Shown: positions 395 to 52,076, counted from the stretch's first letter. The stretch is 64,000 nucleotides of DNA from a virus (IMGVR_UViG_3300043252_000011:1-64000), one strand, 5' to 3'. Notes: generated by a model from the letters alone, not told the origin. Translations and numbers: made by a program.

Positions 395-672
395 TGCAAG
401 ACGGACTAAAAATTGAAACGGCTGCCGCGTTCACGCTGCGCGACGCAATCCGTCAGCATATGCAATCGTTTGCTTTGACTATCCGTACGAACCGCCGATC
501 TAATCAAGCCGTAGTTGCGGTGTACGTTGACGGCTTGGCGGGCGCCGTGGCGCTAACGATCGCGGGCGGCCACGGCAGCAAGGAAGACGTCGTTAACGCA
601 ACGGTAACTAAGTTGCGTGAAGCTGTGGACCGGGATTTGAGGCATTTGGGAAGAGAACATGCCCAACACTGA
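394..672 (+). CDS. hypothetical protein
   Basis: ATG ORF in tightly packed operon. Confidence 0.6.
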   Translation: MQDGLKIETAAAFTLRDAIRQHMQSFALTIRTNRRSNQAVVAVYVDGLAGAVALTIAGGHGSKEDVVNATVTKLREAVDRDLRHLGREHAQH

Positions 673-865
673 ACCAAATTCGTTGCCGCCAAACTTTGAC
701 AGTTGGATGGATTGGCGCGACCTGTACACGTCGCATGCCGCAGAGTTCAACGCCAGCCCGAAGACTTATTCCGGTGTGGTGTTGCTTAAAATACGGCTGA
801 AGCGCATGGGATTTGTTGGCGTCAATCTGGAACGAGAAATTGAGTTCATAAAAGAAAACGCCTGA
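659..865 (+). CDS. hypothetical protein
   Basis: ATG ORF overlapping upstream stop and abutting the helicase. Confidence 0.6.
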   Translation: MPNTEPNSLPPNFDSWMDWRDLYTSHAAEFNASPKTYSGVVLLKIRLKRMGFVGVNLEREIEFIKENA

Positions 866-867
866 CA

Positions 868-2520
868 ATGCACGCCGGCTTCCCCATAACACCGCCCCCG
901 CTGTTCGTACCGCGCCGGCATCAAACCGAAGGTGTACAGACGCTTATAAACCACGACGGCCGATTCAGCGTCGCCGAAGTCAGCGTCGCGGGTGGCAAAA
1001 GCGCGATGTTGGGAATGCTGGCGCTGCATTACAGCCAGTTCGGTCGCGTACTGATAGTTGCACACAACAAGGAATTGGTGGTTCAAAATGTCGAAGCCTG
1101 CAAGCAACTTGGGTGTGTCCCTGGTGTCTGCTCCGCATCCATCAGCGTCAACGCCTTCGCAAGAGTTACTGTCGGAACTATCGGAACAATCGTTAGTAGA
1201 CTCCACCTTTTCCGTGACGTGGTGGCGATACTTGTGGATGAGGTTCACAGGACGCCACCCGCTAAGTCATCGCAATACCGGCGGCTGTTTGATAAGCTCG
1301 CACAAACCAAAGTCCACGGACTGACCGCAACACCGTTCCGATCGGACGGCACTGGCGATCTTAACCGTACATTCGGGCCGGTTGTTTTCAAATATTCATT
1401 TCTCGACGCGCTCCGCGACGGCTACGTTAAGCCGCTCGTTCCCGTGGATGCCGGCGAGGACGAAACTATTGAGGTCGAAGGACTGAAGACCGTAGCCGGC
1501 GACTTCGATATGGACGAAATGGCGCCGCGTGCGATCAAGCTGTCGCCAAGCCATGCGAAAACAATTTTGGAGGTCATGCAAAAGTACGGGCGCCGTCGCG
1601 TGCTGGTGTTCTGTTGCAATATCGAGCACGTTGATAAGATGGACGCGGAGCTGCAAAAACTTAATGCCTCAGTTGTCGGCGTGCATTCGCGCTCGCTCAC
1701 AGGCAAGCGGGACAAAGCCGTTGAAGCATTCAAAGCCGGCCGCGCTGAAATTCTCGTTTCGTGCAATATGTTCACGACGGGCTTTAACGTTGTGGATATT
1801 GATTACATGGCATTCTGCCGCGCCACCAAATCTGCCGTACTGTACGCACAAAGCCTAGGTCGTGGTGCCCGTATAACGCCATACGCCGCTAATTGCCTCG
1901 TATCGGATTTTGGCGGCAACATTCAACGACACGGCACCCTTGACGCCGTGATGGCAGCTCCGGGGCGCTTGTTGGAGTGTGAAGCGGTGTTACCGTCTGG
2001 ACCATGCGCCGCCGAATGGGAAACATGGGAAAACGGCAAAACCTGCCCAAAGTGTCAAACACTGCATCGTAGCGCACCGAAATGTAAAAGCTGCGGCGAA
2101 GCGTTCGATCCGCATTTCCACGGCATGCGCTGCCCACACTGTCACCAACAGCAATCCGAAATAAAGACGTGCGCAGCGTGCGAGGAAACGTACGCGGCAT
2201 TCTTGCACCCGATATGCCCGTTTTGCGGTTTCGACAACACCGTAACGATGGCGGCCGGCAAGGATCTGAAAATGCGCGGCGGTGCGAGTGAAGCCGTCAA
2301 CATTCGCAAACTGGTCGAAGCCGAGCCGTGGCAGGCCGTGGTGAGCCCGCCGGTCAAAAACCCTTCGGGCGGCTGGACGTTGACAACGAAATTCACTACC
2401 TGTACATGGCCGTACGAAGTGCTACCCGAGCCGCATTCGGTTTACTTGAAGCGTTCGCCGAACGGTCGGTATGTTGCGGCTGGCGTGTACGACAGGCAAG
2501 GACAGATACATCAAAGGTGA
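868..2520 (+). CDS. SF2 DEAD/DEAH-box helicase (RadD/YejH-like) with C-terminal zinc ribbons
   Basis: Motifs AGGKS, DEVH, GLTATP, TTGFN, QSLGRGAR; several CxxC pairs in the C-terminus. Confidence 0.92.
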   Translation: MHAGFPITPPPLFVPRRHQTEGVQTLINHDGRFSVAEVSVAGGKSAMLGMLALHYSQFGRVLIVAHNKELVVQNVEACKQLGCVPGVCSASISVNAFARVTVGTIGTIVSRLHLFRDVVAILVDEVHRTPPAKSSQYRRLFDKLAQTKVHGLTATPFRSDGTGDLNRTFGPVVFKYSFLDALRDGYVKPLVPVDAGEDETIEVEGLKTVAGDFDMDEMAPRAIKLSPSHAKTILEVMQKYGRRRVLVFCCNIEHVDKMDAELQKLNASVVGVHSRSLTGKRDKAVEAFKAGRAEILVSCNMFTTGFNVVDIDYMAFCRATKSAVLYAQSLGRGARITPYAANCLVSDFGGNIQRHGTLDAVMAAPGRLLECEAVLPSGPCAAEWETWENGKTCPKCQTLHRSAPKCKSCGEAFDPHFHGMRCPHCHQQQSEIKTCAACEETYAAFLHPICPFCGFDNTVTMAAGKDLKMRGGASEAVNIRKLVEAEPWQAVVSPPVKNPSGGWTLTTKFTTCTWPYEVLPEPHSVYLKRSPNGRYVAAGVYDRQGQIHQR

Positions 2521-2524
2521 CGAT

Positions 2525-2662
2525 ATGGCGTGGAACCCGCCGCATTGGTTCGTAATGCCGCCTAGCGGTGAAAGTCGCCGTTTTGTAAGTACGCAGGCAA
2601 TGGTGATGTTCTTACGGAAGCACCCCGGCTGCTTAGTGACTTGGGTCATCCATCAAAGGTGA
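2525..2662 (+). CDS. small hypothetical protein (MAWNPPHW...)
   Basis: SD aaggtga then ATG; ends in the same 12 bp as the helicase. Confidence 0.55.
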   Translation: MAWNPPHWFVMPPSGESRRFVSTQAMVMFLRKHPGCLVTWVIHQR

Positions 2663-2665
2663 AAC

Positions 2666-2836
2666 ATGGCAAGGACAGTTGAAACGTACAACGCAGCGGT
2701 CGAAGCCTGCGTACAGACGATTAAAGAAATGAAAATCAAAACTGCGGATAGAGACGCTGGAAGTGGTTACGTTTTTAATGAAACTCTCAACGAAATCATA
2801 AAGGCCATCCGAAAACTTCGCCGTCCTGTCACCTAG
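2666..2836 (+). CDS. small hypothetical protein (56 aa, MARTVETYNAAVEAC...)
   Basis: Manual translation; SD aaggtga; below ORF-track cutoff. Confidence 0.55.
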   Translation: MARTVETYNAAVEACVQTIKEMKIKTADRDAGSGYVFNETLNEIIKAIRKLRRPVT

Positions 2837-2915
2837 CCTTGTACGGATAAAGGCTCTTGACGCCGCCCTAAATTCTTGTCATACAAATCGGCCTTAACCA
2901 ACGGAGAGCGGAACC

Positions 2916-3353
2916 ATGAAAATCACAGTCGAGTTTGACAGCGAGGAAGAATTCAAGGCGCGAATCAAAAATCCGCGCGGCGAGCGGGGCGACGGTGCCG
3001 GGCAGACGACGCAAGCCCCGCCGCCCTTGCAGCCGCCTCAGACGCAGCCTGCGTTCAATCCGACCCCGCCGCCGCCCCAGACAGCCGCGTTTACGCCGCC
3101 CCAAGGCTTCCCTGGCGCGCCTGTTGGACAGCCTGCAGCCGATCCTGTCGTATCTGGCCTCGTCCAGCGTATCTCGGCCCGCATTGACAGCGCGCTTGCC
3201 AGCGGCCAGCCTGCCGACGCGGTGCTGAATTGGTTCCGCGGGCAATGCGGCGCCGAGGCGTCGGCCGCAACCATGGACCAGATCAAGACTGTTTTTCTGC
3301 ACAAGCTGGCGCAGCCGGGGCTGGAGAACATTGCGAGATTGATGAACGCCTGA
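2916..3353 (+). CDS. Pro/Gln-rich hypothetical protein
   Basis: SD ggagag; low-complexity linker and small helical C-terminal domain; occupies the position before DUF2800 in APSE-type modules. Confidence 0.75.
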   Translation: MKITVEFDSEEEFKARIKNPRGERGDGAGQTTQAPPPLQPPQTQPAFNPTPPPPQTAAFTPPQGFPGAPVGQPAADPVVSGLVQRISARIDSALASGQPADAVLNWFRGQCGAEASAATMDQIKTVFLHKLAQPGLENIARLMNA

Positions 3354-3368
3354 CGCGACATTGACCGT

Positions 3369-3532
3369 CGGTTAGCAGAGGGATCGGCAAAGAAAGATTA
3401 CTTGCGTTCGCGTCGGGTACAAGGTGATAGGCGTTCAAAGTAATCAACCTCTGCACCGTTTTCATAATTAGGGCGCACAATGGCGTCCTAGGGGCGGCGG
3501 CTTACAGGTACAATGCGTTACCCGCCGCCCCT
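3369..3532 (+). ncRNA. candidate structured intergenic RNA or DNA hairpin element
   Basis: Stems 3375-3381/3448-3454, 3396-3403/3438-3445, 3469-3476/3483-3490, 3490-3500/3522-3532. Confidence 0.4.
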
Positions 3533-3552
3533 GAATTTTCAAAGGTCTGTAC

Positions 3553-4533
3553 ATGCCCCACGCCCTATTCGCACCATCGTCCGCCGCGACGTGGCTAGAG
3601 TGCTCTTTCAGCGCCCGCAACAGCATACCGGAAGCGCCAAAGCCATTGAAGACGCAACTTGCAGCGGACGAAGGCACGCGCGGTCACGAATTACTAGCCG
3701 CTGCCGTTGCGGAGAATGCTTTTCCTGACGACAGCGACAGTAAAGCAGAAGCCGTTGCTTTAGGTATTAGTTTTGTACGGCAGCTGGAGCCCGGCGATAC
3801 GTACACGGAATTGACGGTAGAACTAACGCACGAATGCGGCGGTACGGCCGATCTATTCAACGACCATCCGTACATCGCCACGATCATGGATTACAAGTTC
3901 GGCAAGTGGGACGTTGACGCGTACCACAACAAGCAAATGCTGACCTATGCCGCTGCATTGCTCAACGAGTGCGATGCCGAATGGTGGCGCCTTGTGATTT
4001 TTCAGCCGAACGGCCTAGACGAAATTCCCTTTAAGCAATGGGTCGCACATCGCAGCGAAGTGATTGCGCATCGCGACCGCGTGTTGCGACAGATTGCCGA
4101 TCGGAGCGCCCCGCGCCCCGGCCCGTGGTGCCGCTGGTGCAACGCATTCCAGCAATGCCCGGCCATGTCGATTGATGCCGGTTTCGTCATGGGTGCCATG
4201 TCACGCGTCCCCGAAAGCCTGACCAGCGAGGAACTTGTACGGCTGTTGCGAATCATCCGCGCGCTTGACGACGTGAAAGCGGTTTATGATGACGCACTGA
4301 CTACAAAATTAAAGCTGGGCTACGCGACGCCGGGTGCCGTATTAAAGCCAGCGCGTGCGTTCCGTGCTTGGAATGACCAAGAGCAAGCGGCCAAAGTGCT
4401 ATACGAACAATTTGGCCCGCGTGGAATCAAGCCCGTGTCCCCAGCGCAGGCCGAAAAATTGGGGCCGGCTGGTAAGCAATATGCGGCTGTCGGAGCGCAT
4501 AAGCCCGAAGGGCAGTTGAAAGCGAGTTATTAG
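3553..4533 (+). CDS. DUF2800 / Cas4-like PD-(D/E)XK exonuclease
   Basis: HALFAPSSAATWLEC, EGTRGH, GTADL, DYKFG, QMLTYA, CRWC...C. Confidence 0.88.
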   Translation: MPHALFAPSSAATWLECSFSARNSIPEAPKPLKTQLAADEGTRGHELLAAAVAENAFPDDSDSKAEAVALGISFVRQLEPGDTYTELTVELTHECGGTADLFNDHPYIATIMDYKFGKWDVDAYHNKQMLTYAAALLNECDAEWWRLVIFQPNGLDEIPFKQWVAHRSEVIAHRDRVLRQIADRSAPRPGPWCRWCNAFQQCPAMSIDAGFVMGAMSRVPESLTSEELVRLLRIIRALDDVKAVYDDALTTKLKLGYATPGAVLKPARAFRAWNDQEQAAKVLYEQFGPRGIKPVSPAQAEKLGPAGKQYAAVGAHKPEGQLKASY

Positions 4534-4534
4534 T

Positions 4535-4897
4535 ATGATCGGCATTGAAAAACTGACCAAGTATCGGCTGTGTTATCTGGCAACGCCGTATAGCAAATTT
4601 CCCAGCGGCATCCACTGTGCGTTTGTCGAAGCGTCGATCTTCGCTGCGAGATTGCTCGCGCTTGGCGTTAAAGTTTATAGCCCGATCGCTCACACGCACC
4701 CGCTCGCAATTTACGGCAACATCGATCCGTTAAACCTCGATATTTGGTTGCCATTCGATGCTGCAATGATGGACGCTTCTGAGGCGCTACTGGTCGCCGA
4801 AATGACGGGCTGGCAAACCAGCAAGGGCATTAAACACGAAATCGACTATTTCACAGACGCCGGGAAGGATGTTCATTTTTTGCCATACCCCCTATAA
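4535..4897 (+). CDS. DUF1937 / nucleoside 2-deoxyribosyltransferase-like protein
   Basis: YLATPYS...VYSPIAHTHP...GWQTSKGIKHEI. Confidence 0.8.
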   Translation: MIGIEKLTKYRLCYLATPYSKFPSGIHCAFVEASIFAARLLALGVKVYSPIAHTHPLAIYGNIDPLNLDIWLPFDAAMMDASEALLVAEMTGWQTSKGIKHEIDYFTDAGKDVHFLPYPL

Positions 4898-4904
4898 GAC
4901 TCAC

Positions 4905-4933
4905 TTGACCCTACCTGCCTTTGTCAGTACACT
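4905..4933 (+). promoter_or_regulatory. sigma70-like promoter of the SSB gene
   Basis: TTGACC-N17-TACACT. Confidence 0.7.
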
Positions 4934-4985
4934 CCAAATTCCCTACCGGCTGGGTTAGCCGGATTGATAAATGATAGGTGATAAA

Positions 4986-5756
4986 ATGGCTAACAGACAA
5001 TACGAAGCTGCAACAGTGTTCAATGCTCGCATTGCTGACATGCGGCATCTGTGGACGCCGAGCACAGTGTACAAAGGGCAGCCGACGCAAAAGCCTAACT
5101 ACTTCGCCATGTTCTTAGTTAAGAAAACCGTGGCGCAGTGGTTTCAGGAACCGGCACTCGCGGGCATTTCGGCGGCGTGCGGCAAGATCTACCAGAACAA
5201 CCCGCATATCCTTGTTTGGCCCGTCGTTGACGGCGACATGCCGAGCCCGGAAGGCAAATCATCTGAGTTTGCCAAAAGTCATTGGCTGTTTTCGGGATCG
5301 AGTGCCAACCCGCCGAACGTCGAAATCGTACAAGCCGGCGGTGTACTTACGAAGCTTACGAACAAAGTCGGTGTAAAATCCGGCGATTACGTCATGGCCG
5401 GCGTGACTGCGGCCGTAAAACAGAATGACCCGCGCGGCGTCAAGCTCTACCTTAACGCCGTCGTGTTTTCGTCGCCGGGCGAGGAAATCGTATTCGCCAA
5501 CTCCGTCAGCGGTGCCGAACTGATGCGTATGGCGGAACAGCAAGGCTTGCGTCCAGCGGGTTTCAGTCCTTCGCCTGGAGGCTTTACGCCGCAACAGCCC
5601 TTTGGCCAGCAACCGCAGGGTTTTACGCCGCCGGGAAGCAGCTTTGCCCCTACTCCGGGCGCCCCTGCAGCCCCGGCCTTCGCTGCCCCGGCCCTCACTG
5701 GTCCGGGTTTCGGTGGGAATGCGACATACCCTTCTAACCCCTTCGCACCGCGCTAA
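4986..5756 (+). CDS. ssb: DUF2815-type phage single-stranded DNA-binding protein
   Basis: VVDGD, SGDYV, GVKLYLNAV motifs; lies between DUF2800 and PolA; SD aggtga. Confidence 0.8.
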   Translation: MANRQYEAATVFNARIADMRHLWTPSTVYKGQPTQKPNYFAMFLVKKTVAQWFQEPALAGISAACGKIYQNNPHILVWPVVDGDMPSPEGKSSEFAKSHWLFSGSSANPPNVEIVQAGGVLTKLTNKVGVKSGDYVMAGVTAAVKQNDPRGVKLYLNAVVFSSPGEEIVFANSVSGAELMRMAEQQGLRPAGFSPSPGGFTPQQPFGQQPQGFTPPGSSFAPTPGAPAAPAFAAPALTGPGFGGNATYPSNPFAPR

Positions 5757-5769
5757 ACCGTCAGAGAGG

Positions 5770-5794
5770 GCGGGGACTTCGGTCCCCGCTTTTT
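5770..5794 (+). terminator. Rho-independent terminator-like hairpin
   Basis: GCGGGGAC-TTCG-GTCCCCGC followed by TTTTT. Confidence 0.85.
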
Positions 5795-5796
5795 CC

Positions 5797-7734
5797 ATGC
5801 CGCATCCTGACGACCTATTGGCCGATTTTGAGACGCGCAGCCGTTGCGATCTTAAAAAGGCCGGCGCGAGGCGCTATGCGGCCGATCCTTCGACCGGCAT
5901 CACGTCGGTCGTTTGGCAGTTTCGCGGCACCCGCAAACGCGCCTGCCCTGTGCATCCGCATTTAGGCACGCACGCGCTAACGGACTTGTATGTCGATGTA
6001 CGGCAATGCCGCCGGTTTGTCGCGCACCACGCAAATTTTGACGTGAGTATTCTACGCGCGGTCAATCCGTTTCTCGATCTGCCGCTGCCAAAAATCGACT
6101 GCACAATGGCGCGGGCACAATCGCTTGCACTTCCCGGCGGTCTTGACGAAGTTTGCAAGACACTCGGCATTCGGGGCAAAGACCCGCGTGGACGCGAACT
6201 TGTCATGAAGACATGCCGGCCGCAGCGTGACGGCACTTTCAACGAAGATGTACAGACATTTCGTGAGTTGCTGGAATACAATGACCGGGACGTAGATTGC
6301 CTAATCGATTTAGATAGTCGGCTGCCGCCGCTCACGCCAGACGAGCGTTTGATTTTTGAACGTACATGGCGAAAGAACGAAATCGGTTTGCCGATCGACG
6401 TACATTTGGCAACCGCCATTGCAATGCGACGGCAGGAAATTGAGCAAGAGAGTACCGCGACGCTGATGGAACTGACGCAGAACGCGGTAACGAAACTGTC
6501 ACAGCGCCAGCGCATTATCGAGTGGTGCAACAGCGGCAACCGCGCTGCCGAGTTGGAAAGCACGCAAAAACACATCGTCGCTGAAAAACTGGCCGATGAA
6601 AATTTGCACCCCGACGTACGGATTGTTTTGGAATTGCTGCAATCCGAAGGCGGCTCCGCGCCACTCAAAGCGCAAGCCCTGCTGGATCGGCACGTCGGCG
6701 GCTTTTACAAAGACGCCACTCGGTACTTCGGCGCGCGGTCAGGCCGTGGCACGTCCGAAGGTGCCAACATGTTTAACATAGCGAGACCATCGGGTAAGTA
6801 CGACGGGCAGGACGGACGGCCGACAATCGATAGCGTTATTCAGGGCCTTAAAGCCGGCTTCAAATATAACAACATTGCGCTTACCGATTGCCTTCGCAGT
6901 ACGGTCGTAGCTCCGCAAGGCTGGATGGTCTGCGACAACGACTTATCGGGCGCAGAATACCGCCTCGCAATGTGGATGGCGGGCGATACCGAGCGTCTGA
7001 ATGTGTTGGCGACCGGCGGCGATCCGTACATATACAACGCCATTGCCATGGGACGTTGCCCGCCGGGATCTACCAAAAAGACGCACCCGCATGAGCGACA
7101 GAGCTACAAATCGGTGACGCTGGGCGGCAACTACCAACTCGGTTGGAAAACATACATGGCGCACCAGCGTCGCGCCGGCAACAACGTAGACGAAATCAAA
7201 GCCCGCTCCGATATTGACGGCTACCGGCAAGCAAACCCACTTCTCGTGTCTCTTTGGTTTGCGCTCGCCGACGCGTTCAAGTTCGCGATTTATGAGCAAC
7301 CGGGCCGCATATTTCCTGCTGGCAAAGTCGCTTTTCAGAAAGATAGCCACGGCACCGTATGGATGCTGCTACCGTCCGGCCGCGCCGTACCGCACTATTC
7401 CGCGCATATCACGTACGGCGGTGAAATGGTGTTTTTCCGGGCCAAGTTCGGTGCGATGTTGCGGCGAAAAGCATTTGGTGGTTCGTTGCTCGAAATTGCC
7501 TGCCAGTCCATGACGCGGGACTTAGTAACGGCGGCTGAGGCCGACATTGAACGCGAGCTGCCCGACGTAGTGCTGATCTTGGACGTGTACGATTCAATTT
7601 TATCTCTTGCGCGTACTGACGTTGCCAGTGTACGGTCGCAACAGATGCGTGAGATTATGCGGCGCCCGCGTGCGTGGACTTCGGGGCTGCCGCTGGATTG
7701 CGAAGGCTACGAAAGTCAGAGGATGTCGCGATGA
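5797..7734 (+). CDS. DNA polymerase family A (APSE-like) with 3'-5' exonuclease domain
   Basis: Exonuclease DFET, AHHANFD, YNDRD; motif A DLSGAEYR, motif B RQSYKSVTLGGNY, motif C VYDS; start taken at ATG 5797. Confidence 0.93.
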   Translation: MPHPDDLLADFETRSRCDLKKAGARRYAADPSTGITSVVWQFRGTRKRACPVHPHLGTHALTDLYVDVRQCRRFVAHHANFDVSILRAVNPFLDLPLPKIDCTMARAQSLALPGGLDEVCKTLGIRGKDPRGRELVMKTCRPQRDGTFNEDVQTFRELLEYNDRDVDCLIDLDSRLPPLTPDERLIFERTWRKNEIGLPIDVHLATAIAMRRQEIEQESTATLMELTQNAVTKLSQRQRIIEWCNSGNRAAELESTQKHIVAEKLADENLHPDVRIVLELLQSEGGSAPLKAQALLDRHVGGFYKDATRYFGARSGRGTSEGANMFNIARPSGKYDGQDGRPTIDSVIQGLKAGFKYNNIALTDCLRSTVVAPQGWMVCDNDLSGAEYRLAMWMAGDTERLNVLATGGDPYIYNAIAMGRCPPGSTKKTHPHERQSYKSVTLGGNYQLGWKTYMAHQRRAGNNVDEIKARSDIDGYRQANPLLVSLWFALADAFKFAIYEQPGRIFPAGKVAFQKDSHGTVWMLLPSGRAVPHYSAHITYGGEMVFFRAKFGAMLRRKAFGGSLLEIACQSMTRDLVTAAEADIERELPDVVLILDVYDSILSLARTDVASVRSQQMREIMRRPRAWTSGLPLDCEGYESQRMSR

Positions 7735-11831: not shown

Positions 11832-11832
11832 T

Positions 11833-44717: not shown

Positions 44718-44720
44718 AGT

Positions 44721-44776
44721 CGCTCTCCAGCGGTTTGTCGATGTACGTACAATAACACCTTAAAAACCTATGTCAA
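44721..44776 (-). promoter_or_regulatory. conserved phage promoter/leader cassette, copy C
   Basis: TTGACA-N16-TATTGT, TGTACGTACA, AAACCGCTGGAGAG. Confidence 0.85.
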
Positions 44777-45226
44777 GCGATTATTTCGCTTTTCCAACCG
44801 CCGACCGTAACCCCAGCTCGTTTCGGTGTCCATGCCCAAAAGCCACGCCAGCTTGCCGAGTTCGTAACCCTCACAGATGGCGTCCCAATGGGCCACAGCC
44901 GCTCGCCCATTGACCGGCGAGGCAACGATGGCAATCCGCAAGGCTGACGCTGCAGGCTCGTCGGCAGCCGCCAGAACGCGTTGCTTGCGTTTTGTACGTT
45001 CAAAATCCGTACGTCGCAAGTTACTGATCGCCACAAGATCCTCAACCACGCTCGCAAGCAAGCCGCCGCAAAGTTCCGCCAGTTCGATCGGTAACCCGGC
45101 TTGCCTGCAGGCTATCGTCAAAGTCGGGCTTTTCATCCGTACAAGCGCGTTGATAGCCGGTTGATGCCGCGCAACTGTCTGTACGGCCAGTTCGGGCAGC
45201 CGTGTGTGCGTAATAAGTGCGTTCAC
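44768..45226 (-). CDS. hypothetical protein
   Basis: GTG start with SD aaggt. Confidence 0.6.
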   Translation of the reverse strand: MNALITHTRLPELAVQTVARHQPAINALVRMKSPTLTIACRQAGLPIELAELCGGLLASVVEDLVAISNLRRTDFERTKRKQRVLAAADEPAASALRIAIVASPVNGRAAVAHWDAICEGYELGKLAWLLGMDTETSWGYGRRLEKRNNRLT

Positions 45227-45329
45227 GTTTCGTACCTTTCACGATTGGATGATACTCTCCCTTCGTCCCCCTCGTCTAGTGGGTGTTGATGCCTATGCTT
45301 ACTAACACCCTCCCACTTCAAGGGGGTGA

Positions 45330-45460
45330 TTGAATATGCAGGCTGTAAATTTACGGCTTTTCACCATATATTTACAGCTAAGACTGTGGTAAATTTACAA
45401 CAAATTTATGGTGTAAAATAAAATTCACAAAAATTCATGAGACCCCTTTACAACTCTTTT
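45330..45460. other. AT-rich region with AAATTTAC-like repeats, candidate replication origin
   Basis: GTAAATTTAC palindromes at 45345-45354 and 45389-45398 plus degenerate copies, at a strand switch. Confidence 0.5.
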
Positions 45461-45503
45461 TGAGGGGCGTAGAAGGGTGTCATACAAACCGCTGGAGAGT
45501 GAC

Positions 45504-45785
45504 ATGCAGACCGAGGATTATAAAGGCGCCCGGATACTGGCAACAGTCGAGCACCTGGGCGAAACGTTTCAAATTGTACGGTGGCGCGTCAACGGCAAGC
45601 CATGGCGCAAGTACATGGCACTGTTGTACGGCGGCATAGTTATGTCGTATGGCAAAGGCGAAACCAACCCAACCAGAGCAGCTACTGAGTTCAAACATCT
45701 TTTTGAAAAAACCTTTACCGACCGCACTGAAATGCTCACCCGAATCCAGACTCTGAAACACCAGGCAGCCGGCCATTGCGACTGA
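45504..45785 (+). CDS. hypothetical protein
   Basis: SD ggagag. Confidence 0.65.
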   Translation: MQTEDYKGARILATVEHLGETFQIVRWRVNGKPWRKYMALLYGGIVMSYGKGETNPTRAATEFKHLFEKTFTDRTEMLTRIQTLKHQAAGHCD

Positions 45786-45797
45786 AAAGGAAACATC

Positions 45798-46277
45798 ATG
45801 CACGCGAAATACGAAGGCCAACTACCGGACGGCTGGCAACGTGGCGAGCCGGTTACGAAATACTGGAACGGCGACTACATCCACCTTTACCGGGTTGTAC
45901 GGCCTTGTGCAACGTGCGGCGCTGAAATTAGTCTGGACGTAACCAGAAAGGCGCTCGAAGGCACCAAAAAGAACGCCGGGCTGCTGCTGCGCAACTGTCC
46001 AAAATGCCGAGCGGAACGCAAGGCCGGCGGTCCCGGCTCGCGTGGCGGTAAGTCCAGGCCGGTTGCCGGTGATGCACCCGTGGTTGTGCAGACTGCGATT
46101 CCGGCCGAAATAACGGAGGAACTTGAACGGCTCCGTATGGCAAATGCAACCATGAAAGAGGAACTTGACGGGTTGTACACACAATTAAAGGAGTTGCGCG
46201 AACGCCCTGGCGAACCTGAACTGTTGCAAAAAAGTCACTCAGAAAATAATGTGAAAATGCCTTGGGAAAAGAGTTGA
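45798..46277 (+). CDS. zinc-finger plus coiled-coil protein
   Basis: CATC...CPKC; SD aagga. Confidence 0.7.
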   Translation: MHAKYEGQLPDGWQRGEPVTKYWNGDYIHLYRVVRPCATCGAEISLDVTRKALEGTKKNAGLLLRNCPKCRAERKAGGPGSRGGKSRPVAGDAPVVVQTAIPAEITEELERLRMANATMKEELDGLYTQLKELRERPGEPELLQKSHSENNVKMPWEKS

Positions 46278-46334
46278 CAGAGCGCGGGAATGCGTGTACT
46301 TGTACGTACATCGAAAACGCAAACCGCTGGAGAG
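46274..46334 (+). promoter_or_regulatory. conserved phage promoter/leader cassette, copy D
   Basis: TTGACA...TGTACGTACATCGAAAACGCAAACCGCTGGAGAG. Confidence 0.8.
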
Positions 46335-46339
46335 CGAAA

Positions 46340-46510
46340 ATGATTACCCGAATCAAAACCGACGAAGAACTGGTACAGGAAGCCGCCCGCAAGTTGGCCA
46401 TCGCTTGCAGCGGTGCCGAGTTTGATGCGGCGTGTGCTGACATGGTCGAAGCACTGCGTTATGCTCGTTCCGTGCAATGGTGGTCGCAGTTCGAGCGGGA
46501 GGTTGTGTGA
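46340..46510 (+). CDS. small hypothetical protein
   Basis: Downstream of promoter copy D. Confidence 0.6.
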   Translation: MITRIKTDEELVQEAARKLAIACSGAEFDAACADMVEALRYARSVQWWSQFEREVV

Positions 46511-46728
46511 TGACCGACATGAAAAACGTAAAATTTTTGCGCGACTTGCCGGGCGGCTCCACCTATCATTTAGGAACCGCCGTTTATTATCCGAACGGCC
46601 CCGGCTGGCGCTTTATTTCTAACGTTAGTTCGCACAAGGGCAGTCGTAAGTTCCACGCGACAATGGAAGCATGCGTACCCCGTTGGGTCGGCTACCCTGG
46701 CAAATGCCGCAGTGAGGTCAAGCAATGA
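46510..46728 (+). CDS. small hypothetical protein
   Basis: TGATG coupling, SD ggagg. Confidence 0.6.
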   Translation: MTDMKNVKFLRDLPGGSTYHLGTAVYYPNGPGWRFISNVSSHKGSRKFHATMEACVPRWVGYPGKCRSEVKQ

Positions 46729-46766
46729 GCTACGGCCGCCACAGCATTATCGCGGGAACTTAAGTC

Positions 46767-46943
46767 ATGACGTTAAAAATCCACACAGAATTTGTCTACC
46801 CACCGATTCCAATTCGTCAGTTTGATTGGTCGGCAGTGACTGACAACTACGAACCGGGATGTCCGATTGGTTACGGCCCTACGGAACGAGAAGCGATTGA
46901 CGATTTGCTTTCTCAAATTGAGCCAGAGGAATGGAGTGAATGA
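46767..46943 (+). CDS. small phage protein (PPIPIRQFDW...GYGPTEREAI)
   Basis: Manual translation, 58 aa. Confidence 0.6.
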   Translation: MTLKIHTEFVYPPIPIRQFDWSAVTDNYEPGCPIGYGPTEREAIDDLLSQIEPEEWSE

Positions 46944-47113
46944 GCTACGGCCGCCACCACAGCCACGGCGGCCTTGGCCTCTTTGCCATCGTCGCCGCCA
47001 TCGCATTTGCCTTCGGCGTACGTACAGCGCGCATTATCGTCGGCGGTACGTTGCTGATCGGCGCCGCGTTCTTCGGCTACGTCATGTTTCGCGTGATTAT
47101 GGGGACGATATGA
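46940..47113 (+). CDS. small two-TM membrane protein (MSYGRHHSH...)
   Basis: Manual translation, 57 aa, ATGA overlaps. Confidence 0.6.
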   Translation: MSYGRHHSHGGLGLFAIVAAIAFAFGVRTARIIVGGTLLIGAAFFGYVMFRVIMGTI

Positions 47114-47460
47114 GCAAGCTAATCAAATTTCAGCTAAAATTAAAAGACGGCGTTTCGATTGATTGCGTAGGTTACGTTCCGTACGAAGGATCACCTCTTG
47201 CGTTGACGCGCCCCCTGTTTCAAGGTAGGGCAGGTATTGAATTTGATGAATCGCAATGGTGCGTGAGGCACATCCGTACAAGCATGAGCTTAGGCTTTAC
47301 GCGTTTTGAATCGCGTAAAGCAGGCATGGCGTTTATCGATCTCTTGAAACCGCGCGAGTGGTGCTGGGTTGTTTGCGATGAATCAAAGGGCAAAGAATGC
47401 CCCGAAATAGTGCGCTGTTTTGAGTTGTACCAGAACGCTGTGAAGGTGAGCGTATCGTGA
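47110..47460 (+). CDS. hypothetical protein
   Basis: ATGA overlap, SD gggga. Confidence 0.6.
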   Translation: MSKLIKFQLKLKDGVSIDCVGYVPYEGSPLALTRPLFQGRAGIEFDESQWCVRHIRTSMSLGFTRFESRKAGMAFIDLLKPREWCWVVCDESKGKECPEIVRCFELYQNAVKVSVS

Positions 47461-47558
47461 CCAGCAACGAACAAGCCAGCGAACTCCTAACGCTCATTGC
47501 GCTGTCGCTATTCCTGGCCATGGTGTTGTCGTGGTCGGCTATCATTGGAGGCTAGAAT

Positions 47559-47771
47559 ATGCCACGGCGGTCTGGAATAAATTGGAATTTACCTGATGGA
47601 AATCTGTCAACGGGTGACGCGCAACTCGCGGTACTGATGGACATTCGGGACGAACTGAAAGAGTTAAACAACAAACTCGCTTGCTTTCGCGTCCGCAGGA
47701 TGCTCAACACGGTGCAGCGCATTGACAAGCGTTTGGCCAAAAGGTTGCCGCTCAAACAGCGGGGCGTTTGA
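47559..47771 (+). CDS. hypothetical protein
   Basis: SD ggagg. Confidence 0.6.
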   Translation: MPRRSGINWNLPDGNLSTGDAQLAVLMDIRDELKELNNKLACFRVRRMLNTVQRIDKRLAKRLPLKQRGV

Positions 47772-47861
47772 CAATTCCATAGCGCGAGCATAAAAAGAAA
47801 AACCCCGATACGGGCTCGACTCCGTACCGGGGCTAGAAGCGCACCACAGCTAGGGCCTGCG

Positions 47862-49928
47862 ATGCTCGCTCCCACTAGCACAACCGCGTACGACATACAA
47901 TCTTTTTGGGACGCCGCGATTGCACGCGGTCTTTTCCCCCTCGCCATAGCCCGGAACAGCAAAGCGCCGATCGGCGCGGGTTGGAATCTGTGGACGCACC
48001 CGATCGTGCACCCCGGCGCCGGCAGTGTCGGGCTCCGCTGCGGCGATAACGGCCTGACCGCATTCGATTGCGACCACGCGGACCCGCAAATATCGCAACG
48101 TCTGCTGGCGGCTTTTCGTTCCGTACTCGGCCCGAACATCCCCGTACGCTGGGGCCGTGAACCAAAATTCCTAATTCCGTTTTATCTCGTTGATGCGCCC
48201 GTACAAGGCCGCACATTTACATTTCCAGATGGCAACAAATTACAATTAATGGGCGGTCAGTTCGTCGCGTTCGGTCCGCATAAAGATACCGGCCAAGACT
48301 ATCGCTGGGAAAACTGGAATGTTGAATGGCCTCGACTGACAACGGAGCAACTGCAAACAGTCCTGTCCGAAGTCCCGCTACGAGCTGGTACGTCATTGCG
48401 CTTCGCTGCCGATCATGAAACCGCCAGCGCCGATGAGCTGAAATACGCGACGCCGCAGACGTACGATGAATGGGGAGCCGGCCGCGAAGCTGCCGCACGT
48501 TATCTCGGCATGCTGAAGCACGAATTACTAGGCAAAACCGAAGGACGCGGATCTACAATCTTTGCCATCGTTGGCGTGCTGAAATTTGCCGAGCAACACG
48601 GCATGTGCACGCGGCGTGAAATCGAAGATGCCATCACCGAGGCCGGGCATAGTTTGGACGAAGGCATCGGCGGCCGTACGCTTGGCGAAGAAATAACGCG
48701 GCAGGACCAATTGCCGGTACTGCGCGGCAACCTGATTATGCAAGCAGTCATGTCGCGCCGTACGATGCTGCAAGGTTTGCACGACGCACAGACAGCGCCG
48801 ACGCTGGCGTTACGCAGTGGCTTTGAAATATCCTTGGAGGACGACAATGCCGAGCTGCCATGGCTATTATATCAGAGGATACTTTGCGGCGAGGTTCACT
48901 TTTTCACCGGGCACAGCGGCGCCGGCAAGTCCGCGCTTGTTACTGATTTGGCCTTCCAATTTCTTCGGGGCCAAGCGTGGTTGGATGCTGACAACGAACG
49001 TACAAACGGTCATGTATTGTGGGTTGCCGCTGAAGACGACTACGGCACAGAACGACGCGTGAGGCACTTATTACGCCAAGAGCCAAACGCAACCGAGCTG
49101 GCATCGCGCTTCCACATGATACGCAGCATCAACGAGCCGCTGGCATTCGAGCAACAATGCGTAGCGCAGGTTCAAGCTATGGCCGCAATGAACAAGCGCG
49201 TCGATATAATTACGCTGGATACTTGGGGCGCGAGCGGTCTTTGCTTCGCCGACAATGATACCGAAGCCGTGCTGAAAGCCATGTTTATTCTGAAAAGCGT
49301 AGCGCGGCGTACGGGTGCGGCTGTACTTGTCACCGATCATTTACCGCTCGGCAACGAAGACGCTTGGCAAAAAGGCAACGGCGCCAAGTCTGGCAACGCT
49401 GGTTTTGTTTATCGCGTCACTGGCGGTCGCAACGATTACGTGTCAGTTGATTGCGGCAAGGCGCGCGGTGCTCCGAAGGCCAAAAGTTATACGGGTAAAA
49501 TCGTTTCGGAAAACTACGGCAAAGACGTAAAAGGCCGTACAACCACCGTGAATATATTCAAGCGCATTTCCGAAGTCATCAAAGAGAACAAAGAACAGTC
49601 CGCCGTGCTCAGGCTTGCCGCAATACTGCCCGGAGTAACTGCCGCTGGTATGGACGCCTTGCGCGCCGGCAGTATCGTCCGATTCGATAGTGTGGCTGCC
49701 GAGATAGGCCATGCCGTTAAAGGCGAAGTGCCCGGCTATGTCGTCAGTAAGGATGCCGCTAAAAAGATGTTCGAGGATGGTATAAAGGGCTTGCTAGAGA
49801 GTGGACATTTTAGGGCCTTGTACGGTTATCCGTTTCTTGCTATTTTCCCGCCGAGTGGTAGTGTACGGCAAGAACTGACGATACCGTTTGTAATAGACAT
49901 CCCGAAGGAGAGTTTTCCATGGCAGTGA
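47862..49928 (+). CDS. primase-polymerase (PrimPol-type) fused to AAA/RecA-like helicase
   Basis: KAP...W, VGLRCG...AFDCD; Walker A GHSGAGKS, AAED, Walker B ITLDT, VTDH. Confidence 0.88.
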   Translation: MLAPTSTTAYDIQSFWDAAIARGLFPLAIARNSKAPIGAGWNLWTHPIVHPGAGSVGLRCGDNGLTAFDCDHADPQISQRLLAAFRSVLGPNIPVRWGREPKFLIPFYLVDAPVQGRTFTFPDGNKLQLMGGQFVAFGPHKDTGQDYRWENWNVEWPRLTTEQLQTVLSEVPLRAGTSLRFAADHETASADELKYATPQTYDEWGAGREAAARYLGMLKHELLGKTEGRGSTIFAIVGVLKFAEQHGMCTRREIEDAITEAGHSLDEGIGGRTLGEEITRQDQLPVLRGNLIMQAVMSRRTMLQGLHDAQTAPTLALRSGFEISLEDDNAELPWLLYQRILCGEVHFFTGHSGAGKSALVTDLAFQFLRGQAWLDADNERTNGHVLWVAAEDDYGTERRVRHLLRQEPNATELASRFHMIRSINEPLAFEQQCVAQVQAMAAMNKRVDIITLDTWGASGLCFADNDTEAVLKAMFILKSVARRTGAAVLVTDHLPLGNEDAWQKGNGAKSGNAGFVYRVTGGRNDYVSVDCGKARGAPKAKSYTGKIVSENYGKDVKGRTTTVNIFKRISEVIKENKEQSAVLRLAAILPGVTAAGMDALRAGSIVRFDSVAAEIGHAVKGEVPGYVVSKDAAKKMFEDGIKGLLESGHFRALYGYPFLAIFPPSGSVRQELTIPFVIDIPKESFPWQ

Positions 49929-50087
49929 AAGACGATCCGAAAGCCATTGCCAAATTACTCCGAGCCATGGCTAAAAGTGAACACGGTCAATGTTATGGGT
50001 GGCACGTAATTTTAAACGCTGCAGCAAATTTGCTGGACGCAACGGCAAAATAATGGGCATAGACGCAAACGGCGAATTTGATGGCAT

Positions 50088-50345
50088 TTGTGCCTGTGGA
50101 AAAGCCGCTATGGATGGAATCAGATGTATCCTTGGTGCTACCCACATGCCTCTGAATCGTCAACCACACAAGCCGCGCTCTATGCCGTGGGAGACATCGT
50201 CTATTCCGGCCGCGAGCGCGGAACCGTCGTTACCGTGGACGCAGACAAGGCTACCATGGGAGTAGTTTGGGAAGACAGTGATGACGGCAAGCCGATTACA
50301 TATCCGATGGACGCAGACTACTTGAGTAAGGAATTTCCATGGTAG
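50088..50345 (+). CDS. hypothetical protein (SH3-like)
   Basis: VGDIVY...GTVV...VVWED; start uncertain; overlaps another ORF (49990-50265). Confidence 0.45.
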   Translation: MCLWKSRYGWNQMYPWCYPHASESSTTQAALYAVGDIVYSGRERGTVVTVDADKATMGVVWEDSDDGKPITYPMDADYLSKEFPW

Positions 50346-51289
50346 CGTACTACAACGAAAAAGACCCGTTCGCAGCGGAATGGCTACGCAAATTAATTGC
50401 TGCGAACATCATCGCACCCGGCGACGTTGACGAAAGAAGCATTGAAGATGTTATTCCCATGGAACTCGCCAAGTACACACAATGCCATTTCTTCGCCGGC
50501 ATCGGTGTCTGGTCTTACGCCATGCGCCGCGCCGGCTGGCCCGATGACCGCCACGGCTGGAGCGGTTCGTGCCCATGCCAGCCTTTCAGCCAGGCAGGCC
50601 AAGGCGCGGGGTTTGCTGACGAGCGGCACCTATGGCCTGCGTTTTTCCATCTTATCGAGCAGTGCCGCCCTGACATCGTTTTTGGTGAGCAGGTTGCGAG
50701 CCCGGACGGATTTGCTTGGTTCGACCTTGTACAGTCTGACATGGAAGGTACGGACTACGCCTTCGGGGCGCTCGATCAATGCGCTGCGGGCTTCGGCGCG
50801 CCGCATATCAGACAGCGGCTATACTGGATGGCCTACGACAACAGCGCGGGACTGGCCCAGCAACAGCGCAACGGAAGAATACCATTCGGAACGCTGGTCG
50901 CACTCCCGCGGGAAGGCGCTGAACGAATTAACGGAGCAACTAGCGGGATGGAACAGCACGTCGGCGTCGGACGGGAATGGCGGCAAACGTCCGCACCCGG
51001 ATACGACAATGACGGGGCGGCACCCGAACGGCAACAAAATCAATATGGGGGTGTCATCGCAAGCACACCTAGCATTCTTGAACGTGCAGCCGGCCCGACT
51101 AACGGTTACTGGCGAGCTGCTGATTGGCTCCGATGCAAAGATGACAAGTGGCGGCCAGTTGAACCCAGCGCATTCCCGTTGGCTCATGGGGTTGCCAATT
51201 GAGTGGGACTTCTGCGGGGTTACGGTAACGCTATCGTCGCGCCGCAAGCGCAAGAATTTGTGAAGGCAGCCATGCAGTACATGCCATGA
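50339..51289 (+). pseudogene. C5-cytosine DNA methyltransferase alpha chain interrupted by in-frame TGA at 51200-51202
   Basis: Motifs I FFAGIG, IV GSCPCQPFS, VI GEQV, VIII HIRQR; motif X GYGNAI lies after the TGA; downstream stop 51289 overlaps the next ATG. Confidence 0.75.
50397..51263 (+). CDS. overlapping-frame beta chain of the C5 methyltransferase (M.EcoHK31I-like)
   Basis: Open +1 frame with WPTTTARD and motif-IX-like LNPAHSRWLMGLPIEW; true start probably internal. Confidence 0.65.
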   Translation: MLRTSSHPATLTKEALKMLFPWNSPSTHNAISSPASVSGLTPCAAPAGPMTATAGAVRAHASLSARQAKARGLLTSGTYGLRFSILSSSAALTSFLVSRLRARTDLLGSTLYSLTWKVRTTPSGRSINALRASARRISDSGYTGWPTTTARDWPSNSATEEYHSERWSHSRGKALNELTEQLAGWNSTSASDGNGGKRPHPDTTMTGRHPNGNKINMGVSSQAHLAFLNVQPARLTVTGELLIGSDAKMTSGGQLNPAHSRWLMGLPIEWDFCGVTVTLSSRRKRKNL

Positions 51290-51609
51290 GTGATATAGAG
51301 GTTTTTCCCTGGGACCCGCCACAACGATCGGTGGAAGACACCATCGAATTGATACGAAACGACTTTGCGTACGCTGTTGCAAACACCGCGATTGTAGTAC
51401 ATTCCAACAATCCGGCGTTCGCCTTCATCGCCAACACGCAGCGGGGCCAGCTCGTACCGCGCGGGGAGGTTAAACTGTCGGACGGAACGACGGTTGAATT
51501 GCAGGATATCGGGATGTGCCAGCCCAACGTGCCTCACATGACCGTACAGCAGATCATGACGCGTATCTGGAAACTGGCGAGTGATTTGGGGTTGGAGATT
51601 GTGAAATGA
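51286..51609 (+). CDS. hypothetical protein
   Basis: ATGA coupling. Confidence 0.6.
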   Translation: MSDIEVFPWDPPQRSVEDTIELIRNDFAYAVANTAIVVHSNNPAFAFIANTQRGQLVPRGEVKLSDGTTVELQDIGMCQPNVPHMTVQQIMTRIWKLASDLGLEIVK

Positions 51610-52037
51610 CAAAAGACGAAGTTATTAATAAAATTGTCACTGATCTAGCGTGGCGCGGGCCGAGCGGACGACCGATGAATTTTGTTTGTCTAACACGTGA
51701 ACAAGCGATAGTCCTAATAAAGCCAGAGCCAGAAAAAGAGACTTCTAAATGACCGCATACTGGCCAACGGCTGCCGTAATGCAGCATCTGGACGGCTACC
51801 AGCGAGTCGGACTGGTAAACGCTTCGCTCGGCACGTCGCAACTAATGATGGTTGCCTGCCATATAACGCGACCAGCAAGATATCCGCCTGCACGTCATTG
51901 GCAGTCATTCAATCGAAAGGCGCCGGAATGCGTTGCGTTTACCTGAGCTACCCCGACTACGGCCAATGGACCGCCCTGGAGCGCGGCGGCTTTGTGGAAA
52001 TGTGGGACGATTTCGGCTTTGTGATGGACGCGCTGCA

Positions 52038-52066
52038 TTGACAGCGTACGGTAGCAGGTGTACAGA
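52038..52066 (+). promoter_or_regulatory. sigma70-like promoter upstream of the repeat
   Basis: TTGACA-N17-TACAGA. Confidence 0.5.
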
Positions 52067-52076
52067 ATAACAACAA

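What the first reader, a model, noticed from the sequence alone, without database searches (positions are those of the whole stretch)
395..52076. Genome-wide over-representation of the palindrome YGTACR in phage 1 only
Seen, by manual and approximate counts: GTAC occurs about 18 times in 1-3000 (about 13 as YGTACR) and about 20 times in 17001-20000 (about 15 as YGTACR). It occurs only about 4 times in 52471-55500 and about 3 times in 60001-63000. Uniform expectation for YGTACR is about 3 per 3 kb. Known: phages usually avoid palindromes, and the cyanobacterial HIP1 repeat is a precedent for an iterated palindrome linked to a methylase. Inference: the motif may be a self-mark written or read by a phage enzyme (N4/N6 MTase-SNF2 pair, Mom-like protein, GNAT) or a binding site for a phage DNA-binding protein.
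Basis: partly seen in the sequence, partly recalled or inferred. Interest (0 to 1): 0.78.

Follow-up and report, generated by a model that had tools for sequence, protein, structure and literature searches.

The report
Iterated YGTACR palindrome in soil phages
One of the two soil phages joined in this contig, and its whole clade, carries the six-letter palindrome YGTACR about four times too often in every reading frame and between genes, while its nearest relatives purge the same word; the phage's methylases do not explain it, and the only gene that tracks it is a tiny early gene of unknown function.

Summary
Phage 1 (window 1-52076) has 335 GTAC and 196 YGTACR. Dinucleotide shuffles give 138±11 and 50±7 (z 17 and 21). 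The synonymous-codon shuffle gives z +8.5, about +5 in each frame, and spacers are just as rich. Phage 2 is depleted (z -4.9).

The word is the degenerate palindrome YGTACR: CGTACG 3.8x, CGTACA/TGTACG 4.3x, TGTACA 3.3x. RGTACY is depleted (GGTACC 0.13x). There is no strand bias and no regular spacing.

Among 22 related whole genomes fetched, 16 are enriched (1.7-4.25x). Six others are depleted (0.33-0.75x): a sister clade of five and one further relative.

The named candidates fail. The N4/N6 methylase-SNF2 pair sits in 2 of the 16 enriched relatives, the C5 methylase in 2 and the GNAT in 11. Close homologues of the pair also occur in depleted contigs. No Vsr gene or Vsr-like neighbour signature was found.

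Sites are kept at silent positions and are rare in recently exchanged genes.

One 69-aa early gene (43249-43458, minus) tracks the trait through both its gain and one loss (G021). Its fold is SH3/Tudor-like and its function is unknown.

Most likely this is a selection-maintained dispersed DNA word with an unidentified reader. The same scan has noted GTAC-core excesses in other phages, including a relative of this one.

The parts
1..52076 (.). Phage 1, a complete circle that is YGTACR-rich throughout: 196 sites, mean spacing 265 bp, near-Poisson.
   Evidence: Self-BLAST shows 1-394 = 52077-52470 at 100%. Counts and shuffles. Spacing CV 0.93.
52077..52470 (+). A 394-bp stretch identical in both phages, carrying a 117-aa gene and no YGTACR site. 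It is the joint of the two genomes in the contig.
52471..64000 (.). First part of phage 2, which runs to 98301 of the contig. It is GTAC-poor: CGTACG 1 against 14.7 expected over the whole phage.
43249..43458 (-). A4, a 69-aa early protein. It is the only gene whose presence follows the enrichment through both its gain and its loss. Predicted fold is an SH3/Tudor-like barrel.
   Evidence: HMM search: present in 16 of 16 enriched whole genomes and absent from G021, the five sister-clade genomes, G020 and phage 2. Tree. Loci. Fold.
42788..43264 (-). GcrA-family regulator whose start overlaps the end of A4. It is patchy across the clades, so it is not the cause, but it points to an alphaproteobacterial host.
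   Evidence: PF07750, E 4.9e-34. Distribution. Nearest bacterial relative is Bradyrhizobium sp., 43%.
44768..45226 (-). A1, a 152-aa all-helical early protein limited to the clade and kept in the non-enriched G021.
45798..46277 (+). A2, a 159-aa zinc-ribbon plus coiled-coil protein limited to the clade and kept in G021.
47862..49928 (+). PrimPol-AAA_25 primase-helicase limited to the clade and kept in G021. The sister clade has a very different AAA_25 protein at this place.
51286..51609 (+). A3, a 107-aa protein limited to the clade and kept in G021.
7674..10093 (+). SNF2 helicase (7674-9122) and N4/N6 methylase (9110-10093). Not linked to the word.
   Evidence: Pfam. Distribution.
10099..10590 (+). 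GNAT acetyltransferase (Acetyltransf_3). Not required for the enrichment.
50339..51202 (+). C5 cytosine methylase. It is sporadic, shared with phage 2, and itself site-poor (1 site).
30141..32235 (.). Longest stretch without a site (2.1 kb), covering accessory genes with few or no orthologues in relatives.

Best explanation
YGTACR is a dispersed DNA-level word that selection builds up and keeps in one clade of about 52-kb soil phages, whose hosts are probably Alphaproteobacteria.

Shown:
- The excess is independent of composition, codon usage, reading frame, strand and coding status.
- Sites are chosen at silent codon positions and are retained between diverged genomes.
- Genes recently exchanged with other phages lack the word.
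- The trait appears at the base of the clade and has been lost once inside it.

Inferred:
- The word is read on duplex DNA by a factor with two-fold symmetry. Each flank contributes about independently: Y is favoured 5' of GTAC and R is disfavoured.
- The factor is specific to the phage lineage, not to the host. It is not one of the phage's methylases.
- The benefit grows with the number of sites, as for a self-mark, a protective coat or a loading site.

The best candidate from comparative genomics is the 69-aa early protein A4 (43249-43458, minus strand), or something that travels with it. What A4 does is unknown.
For: Statistics: (z 7 to 21).

The four top-ranked 6-mers of 14 pooled enriched genomes under a second-order model all contain GTAC: CCGTAC, CGTACA, CTGTAC, CGTACG. 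There is no information beyond position -2.

There is no strand or coding-strand bias: CGTACA 54 against TGTACG 52, and CCGTAC 66 against GTACGG 64.

Among relatives whose capsids are at least 86% identical, the trait is bimodal.

Sites of phage 1 are retained 1.5-2.4 times more often than phase-matched 6-mers in enriched relatives, and at or below expectation in the sister clade.

Where the amino acids are identical, distant enriched genomes keep YGTACR in 107 of 178 windows. The sister clade uses synonymous alternatives.

Density by gene class is 3.9x in core genes, 4.9x in clade-wide genes and 2.9x in rare genes. The five genes shared with phage 2 hold 3 sites in 3.2 kb, about 1x.

Phage 1 and phage 2 share 394 identical bases yet have opposite GTAC content. 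This argues against a purely host-level cause.

A4 is present in 16 of 16 enriched whole genomes. It is absent from all 8 non-enriched genomes searched, including G021, which keeps A1, A2, A3 and the PrimPol. G021 is nested inside the enriched clade.

Every A4-bearing locus of at least 10 kb has O/E 1.5-5.7. L228 is left out: it is a doubtful partial match (E 2e-4) in a 436-kb contig with no other phage 1 gene.
Against: No reader is shown.

The A4 association rests on only two coincident events, one gain and one loss.

A4's predicted fold matches best the RNA-polymerase-binding Tudor domains (UvrD/PcrA C-terminus, CarD, Mfd RID) and TraI domains, at middling Z of 5-6.5. That would suit host take-over as well as DNA reading.

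A4-positive genomes range from 1.5x to 5.7x, so A4 does not set the level of enrichment.

A benefit that rises with the number of sites is assumed, not demonstrated.

The host is unknown, so a host factor or host methylase cannot be excluded.

The loss of sites in G021 could reflect a host switch, with the A4 deletion a coincidence.
Confidence: 0.45

Rival explanations
1. Host-driven. The clade infects hosts in which a host protein reads YGTACR, or a host methylase with a repair pathway drives sequences toward it. The phage genome is moulded by that host, and relatives on other hosts are not.
For: The trait is quantitative (0.33 to 5.7x) and reversible inside the clade, as expected if hosts differ. 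Different clades purge different palindrome sets, so they meet different restriction repertoires. G021 has a different G+C (0.62) and has purged CGTACG and TGTACA.
Against: Phage 2 shares 394 identical bases with phage 1 and is GTAC-poor. The two alphaproteobacterial loci sampled, Bradyrhizobium and Caulobacter, have YGTACR O/E 0.45 and 0.20. One-letter neighbours of the word are not depleted.
Confidence: 0.22
2. HIP1-like. A methylase specific for YGTACR, phage- or host-encoded, marks the sites. A methyl-directed mismatch repair converts near-matches into the word.
For: Elhai 2015 (PMC4390886) links iterated palindromes to cognate methylases. Phage 1 carries two methylases.
Against: Neither methylase co-varies with the trait. 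There is no Vsr-family gene in the contig. The transition neighbours YATACR/YGTATR stand at a ratio of 1.06 between clades, and all one-letter neighbours lie at 0.78-1.31. The enrichment is 4x, not 10-100x.
Confidence: 0.1
3. Priming sites. The clade-specific PrimPol-helicase starts primers at a GTAC-containing template word, and dense sites on both strands speed replication.
For: The PrimPol-helicase is present in 13 of 13 enriched and 0 of 6 depleted genomes of the first set. A contig with a 35% identical relative has a mild excess, 1.7x. My own knowledge: some primase-polymerases need a fixed template word.
Against: G021 keeps the PrimPol (67% identical) but has O/E 0.67. A second distant relative has 0.65. 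A single-strand reader does not need a palindrome.
Confidence: 0.08
4. A passive by-product. Heavy purging of other palindromes and skewed codon or dinucleotide use push sequence into the few permitted palindromes.
For: All these phages purge many 6-bp palindromes. The sister clade shows mild excesses of the spared ones: GATATC 2.6x, GGTACC 2.4x, GTATAC 1.6x against composition.
Against: The excess survives dinucleotide, Markov and synonymous-codon controls. The roughly 150 surplus sites far exceed the sites removed from neighbouring words. The word is equally dense in spacers. Sites are conserved in position.
Confidence: 0.05

Closest known systems
HIP1 (GCGATCGC) and alternate highly iterated palindromes of cyanobacteria (Elhai 2015, PMC4390886)
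   Same: A short palindrome is over-represented genome-wide, in genes and spacers. It is lineage-specific and can be lost or replaced between relatives.
   Different: This case is in a phage, not a cell. The excess is 4x rather than tens of fold. No cognate methylase travels with it, and there is no biased pattern of one-letter deviations.
Chi-rich lambdoid phages that lack a recombination module (Zheng et al. 2025, PMC12315714)
   Same: A phage genome is enriched in a short word that some machinery reads. Enrichment co-varies with phage gene content.
   Different: Chi is asymmetric, oriented and, in the named phage LLS, clustered near the ends. YGTACR is symmetric, shows no orientation bias and is spread evenly.
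Avoidance of Type II restriction sites by phages (PMC6286503; title and abstract seen only)
   Same: The same class of words (4-6 bp palindromes) is involved. Phage 2, G020, G021 and the sister clade purge CGTACG and many others to near zero.
   Different: In phage 1 the sign is reversed for exactly this word.
GTAC-core excesses noted by this scan in other phages: AGTACT in Rak2-like jumbo phages and enterobacterial prophages, and CGTWACG in an uncultured temperate phage
   Same: A GTAC or YGT/ACR palindrome is enriched in all frames in phages that purge other palindromes.
   Different: The flanks are opposite (AGTACT is depleted here, 0.31x). Hosts and phage families differ. Here a close sister clade without the trait allows a search for the gene. 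Those notes are unchecked by me.
Operators of Phd/YefM antitoxins (TGTACA core, PMC1802561)
   Same: A dimeric DNA-binding fold reads a TGTACA or CGTACG core.
   Different: There is no PhdYeFM domain in the contig. This case has about 200 sites inside genes rather than a pair of sites in a promoter.

Membership tests
HIP-type iterated palindrome (Elhai 2015) | Palindromic word far above expectation throughout the genome, in genes and spacers | tested here: met
   196 sites against 50±7. All three frames and the spacers are enriched. The magnitude is modest at 4x.
HIP-type iterated palindrome (Elhai 2015) | A methylase specific for the word, or its core, is present whenever the word is abundant | tested here: not met
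   Among the 16 enriched relatives, the N4/N6 methylase is in 2 and the C5 methylase in 2. Homologues also sit in depleted contigs. A host methylase could not be tested.
HIP-type iterated palindrome (Elhai 2015) | Biased pattern of one-letter deviations, pointing to directed repair | tested here: not met
   All one-letter core neighbours lie at 0.78-1.31 relative to the sister clade. No Vsr-family gene was found.
Chi-like oriented hotspot | Asymmetric word with an orientation bias relative to DNA ends or replication | tested here: not met
   CGTACA 54 against TGTACG 52 on the + strand, with no block-wise polarity.
Restriction-site avoidance | The palindrome lies below expectation | tested here: not met
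   Not met for YGTACR in phage 1. It is met for phage 2 (CGTACG 0.07), for G020 and the sister clade, and for G021. In phage 1 it is met for RGTACY (GGTACC 0.13, AGTACT 0.31).
Dispersed operator or stoperator sites of a phage repressor | Tens of sites, mostly at promoters or gene junctions, often oriented with transcription | tested here: not met
   About 200 sites. Density is similar in genes and spacers. There is no coding-strand bias and spacing is near-Poisson.
Phd/YefM operator system | A PhdYeFM-domain protein is encoded | tested here: not met
   PF02604 finds nothing in the 98-kb contig, and the control genomes ring.
Tudor/SH3-like RNA-polymerase-interacting domain (CarD N-terminus, Mfd RID, UvrD/PcrA C-terminus), for A4 | Fold match clearly above background, and sequence-family membership | tested here: inconclusive
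   VIA-align Z 5.7-5.9 at 18-21% identity. That is within the range the tool calls common. Foldseek best E is 0.05. No Pfam or PDB sequence match.
GcrA cell-cycle regulator family, for ORF 42788-43264 | Match to PF07750 above the curated cut-off | tested here: met
   118.4 bits against a cut-off of 26.9, covering 2-148 of 155 profile positions.

The most novel reading that the evidence does not exclude
It binds the roughly 200 dispersed sites on the phage chromosome. It thereby marks the chromosome as self, for example by holding host RNA polymerase on phage DNA or by shielding it from GTAC-directed restriction. If so, it would be the first identified reader of the GTAC-core iterated palindromes that recur in unrelated phages.
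Probability: 0.15. Interest if true: 0.85.

Novelty: new variant of a known kind. Interest (0 to 1): 0.62.

Why it matters
Phages are expected to shed short palindromes, and the relatives of this phage do so to an extreme degree. A clade that instead accumulates one palindrome, and conserves it at silent positions, must gain something from each copy. No such benefit or reader is known for any phage.

This scan has met GTAC-core excesses in several unrelated phage groups without finding a reader. Here, very close relatives with and without the trait exist, and one loss lies inside the enriched clade. That cuts the candidate genes from about ten to one small protein and rules out the obvious methylase explanation. 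The open question becomes a bench experiment: a binding assay with one 69-aa protein, plus a methylation read-out on virion DNA.

Tried and rejected
- **Phage collection.** DNA similarity to the INPHARED phage collection gave no match.
- **Prophage relatives.** The capsid found no relative in 185,579 species genomes, so no host came by that route.
- **tRNAs.** None in the window.
- **A1, A2, A3.** A1 was folded (pLDDT 88); Foldseek against the PDB found no match. Profile searches against PDB sequences gave nothing for A1 and A3. A2 gave only a weak coiled-coil or bZIP-like hit at E 0.014.
- **ESM Atlas** for A1 and A3: no usable hit.
- **A4 in sequence libraries.** No Pfam or PDB sequence match.
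- **A4 homodimer job.** No answer; it counts neither for nor against.
- **A4 or A1 in other phage backbones.** All hits in IMG/VR and JGI metagenomes belong to the same clade. No independent lineage was gained.
- **Sequencing runs.** Only assembled contigs of soil metagenomes are kept. Molecule ends or nicks at GTAC could not be examined, and read laying was not used.
- **Spacing and helical phasing.** Only the trivial distance of 4 (GTACGTAC) stands out. Small excesses at 6, 10 and 27 bp come from related genomes counted together.
- **G021 tandem array.** Some units of the 18-bp array upstream of its PrimPol carry CGTACA. Homologous arrays in G013 and G015 have no GTAC, so I do not read it as a binding array for the word.
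- **Alternating pyrimidine-purine tracts or UV avoidance.** Rejected, because only GTAC-containing 6-mers top the list and position -2 prefers C.
- **Methylase specificity.** It could not be inferred. The best solved relatives are a Thermus beta-class methylase, with CcrM only weakly matched, and M.HhaI.


Full report
**What the DNA is.** The window is the first 64 kb of a 98,428-bp virus record. Self-comparison shows that 1-394 recurs exactly at 52077-52470 and that 1-127 recurs at the contig end. The record is therefore two circular phage genomes joined through a shared 394-bp stretch. Phage 1 is 1-52076. Phage 2 is 52077-98301. They share a few genes at 72-80% DNA identity.

**The observation.** Phage 1 has 335 GTAC (6.4 per kb) and phage 2 about 1.2 per kb along its whole length.
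- Dinucleotide-preserving shuffles of phage 1 give GTAC 138±11 and YGTACR 50±7, against 335 and 196 observed (z 17 and 21).
- Under the maximal-order Markov model, GTAC is the most over-represented of all 256 tetramers (O/E 1.30, z 7.4).
- Shuffling synonymous codons inside each gene keeps protein and codon usage. It gives 186±11 against 279 observed (z 8.5). The three frames give z 5.5, 5.3 and 4.8.
- Spacers carry 7.7 GTAC per kb.
- Phage 2 is depleted by the same synonymous-codon test (z -4.9).

**The word.** It is the degenerate palindrome YGTACR, with these counts against composition:

| Form | Observed | Expected |
|---|---|---|
| CGTACA/TGTACG | 106 | 24.5 |
| CGTACG | 58 | 15.3 |
| TGTACA | 32 | 9.8 |
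| GGTACC | 2 | 15.3 |
| AGTACT | 3 | 9.8 |

- Mixed flanks lie in between, roughly as the product of two independent half-site effects.
- Position -2 mildly prefers C, and nothing further out carries information.
- In 14 pooled genomes the four top-ranked 6-mers under a second-order model all contain GTAC: CCGTAC, CGTACA, CTGTAC and CGTACG.
- There is no strand bias and no bias toward the coding strand.
- Spacing is near-Poisson (CV 0.93), with no phasing.

**Relatives.** The capsid protein finds more than 80 IMG/VR contigs at 86-99% identity. I fetched 22 whole genomes.
- YGTACR O/E falls into two groups. Sixteen genomes lie at 1.7-4.25. Five sister-clade genomes lie at 0.43-0.75, and G020 at 0.33.
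- The depleted genomes purge many 6-bp palindromes to near zero, CGTACG among them. These phages therefore live under heavy Type II restriction.
- Phage 1's clade purges too (GAGCTC 0.04, CTCGAG 0.08, CAGCTG 0.13), but has CGTACG at 4.2x.

**A DNA-level, maintained trait.**
- Phage 1 sites are retained in other enriched genomes 1.5-2.4 times more often than phase-matched 6-mers. In the sister clade they are retained no more than expected.
- Where the encoded amino acids are identical, distant enriched genomes keep YGTACR in 107 of 178 windows. The sister clade uses synonymous alternatives.
- Core genes carry 3.9x, clade-wide genes 4.9x and rare genes 2.9x.
- The five genes shared with phage 2 carry 3 sites in 3.2 kb, about chance level. 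This is what is expected if newly acquired DNA is slowly converted.

**The proposed writers fail.**
- The N4/N6 methylase and its SNF2 neighbour occur in phage 1 and in only 2 of the 16 enriched relatives (G019 and the L001/L014 contig). They also occur in the non-enriched G021.
- Homologues 80-82% identical sit in contigs at O/E 0.3-0.6. Homologues 60-69% identical sit in a contig at 0.11.
- The C5 methylase is in 2 of the 16 enriched relatives. It has a homologue in GTAC-poor phage 2.
- The GNAT is absent from four enriched complete genomes and present in G021.
- No Vsr-family gene is present.
- The deamination neighbours YATACR/YGTATR are not depleted. All one-letter neighbours lie at 0.78-1.31 relative to the sister clade, while YGTACR stands at 5.8. 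The repair-drive model proposed for HIP1 (PMC4390886) therefore leaves no trace here.

**Search for the gene.**
- Genes of phage 1 present in all 13 enriched genomes of the first set and essentially absent from the six depleted ones are the PrimPol-AAA_25 primase-helicase and a handful of small early proteins. Pfam and PHROGs are almost blank for these.
- One genome breaks the tie. G021 (51.8 kb, G+C 0.62) has the PrimPol (67%), A1, A2, A3, the GNAT and even the methylase-SNF2 pair. Yet its O/E is 0.67, with CGTACG 4 against 17 expected and TGTACA 0 against 6.5.
- Profile searches show that it lacks just one clade-wide gene, the 69-aa ORF A4 (43249-43458, minus). A4 is present in all 16 enriched genomes and in none of the 8 non-enriched ones.
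- On a tree of eight core proteins, G021 is nested inside the enriched clade. Trait and gene were therefore gained together and lost together.
- In 24 further contigs where the region can be read, A4 lies 1-3 kb downstream of A1, and all are enriched.
- This is an association from two events, not proof.

**What A4 is.** A4 has 254 relatives in metagenomes, all unnamed. Its model (pLDDT 80) is an SH3/Tudor-like barrel. The best structural neighbours are TraI domains and the RNA-polymerase-binding Tudor domains of UvrD/PcrA, CarD and Mfd, at Z 5-6.5, which is not decisive.

**Host.** The ORF that overlaps the end of A4 (42788-43264) is a clear GcrA-family regulator. GcrA is a regulator conserved among Alphaproteobacteria that acts with RNA polymerase at methylated promoters (PMC3667746, PMC4647560). 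It is patchy in both clades and in phage 2. It therefore does not explain the word, but it points to alphaproteobacterial hosts. The nearest bacterial homologue is in Bradyrhizobium (43%). The bacterial loci recovered are YGTACR-poor (O/E 0.1-1.0).

**Reading.** The word is real, symmetric, selected and phage-lineage-specific. Phage 2 shares identical DNA with phage 1 yet purges GTAC. I therefore favour a phage-borne cause (0.45) over a host-borne one (0.22), with A4 as the one concrete candidate. Methylase-linked drive (0.10), primase sites (0.08) and a compositional by-product (0.05) are less likely.

**Link to earlier notes.** The scan has reported GTAC-core excesses in other phages, with different flanks. 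No reader of the word was found in any of them.

**Limits.**
- Gene calls are from my own simple caller.
- The host is inferred.
- No modification data exist.
- The look-up of encoding contigs closed before more A4-bearing contigs could be fetched.

Noticed in passing
window 42788-43264 (-); also contig 92961-93497 in phage 2: GcrA-family cell-cycle regulator genes occur in phage 1, in phage 2 and in several relatives of both clades. Their starts or ends overlap neighbouring small genes. This suggests alphaproteobacterial hosts and phage interference with GcrA/CcrM-type control.
   Followed up: partly
G001-G005, G020 (loci L092-L112) and phage 2 (window 52471-64000 and beyond): GC-rich 6-bp palindromes are purged to an extreme degree. 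GGATCC, GAGCTC, GGGCCC, CCGCGG, CGATCG and CTGCAG lie at 0-0.03 of expectation, and CCWGG and GANTC at 0.01-0.02. The few spared palindromes (GATATC, GTATAC, GGTACC) lie at 1.6-2.6x against composition.
   Followed up: partly
L181:11353-11826 (G021 51353-51826); G013 34243-34457; G015 50833-51008: Long tandem arrays of 9-21-bp GC-rich units (26 copies of an 18-mer in G021) lie directly upstream of the PrimPol-helicase gene in several clade members. They may be origin iterons. Phage 1 has no such array.
   Followed up: partly
L258:15324-17668 and L259:7348-9569: The SNF2 plus N4/N6 methylase pair of phage 1 recurs at 35-69% identity next to a GcrA-like gene in two MAG contigs, labelled Planctomycetaceae and Salinisphaerales. 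The three genes may travel together.
   Followed up: no
window 44307-44717 (-): A 136-aa ORF matches only the C-terminal third of the DUF2800 / PD-(D/E)XK exonuclease family. The phage also encodes a full-length copy at 3553-4533. It could be a fragment or a stand-alone domain.
   Followed up: no
window 12743-12830: A 21-bp tandem repeat of 4.2 copies lies inside the gene 12571-13014. Similar 21-bp arrays (AACA..GCCACC-like units) occur in G003, G008, G013 and G019.
   Followed up: no
L177 (Logan contig, 15.8 kb): A contig with a 35% identical primase-helicase also encodes an Acb2/Tad1-hairpin family protein (an anti-CBASS/Thoeris sponge fold). It has a mild YGTACR flank preference: 25 of its 51 GTAC are YGTACR.
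   Followed up: no
window 4535-4897 (+): A DUF1937 protein (E 1e-22) lies between the exonuclease and the SSB. It has no orthologue in any of the 22 relatives.
   Followed up: no
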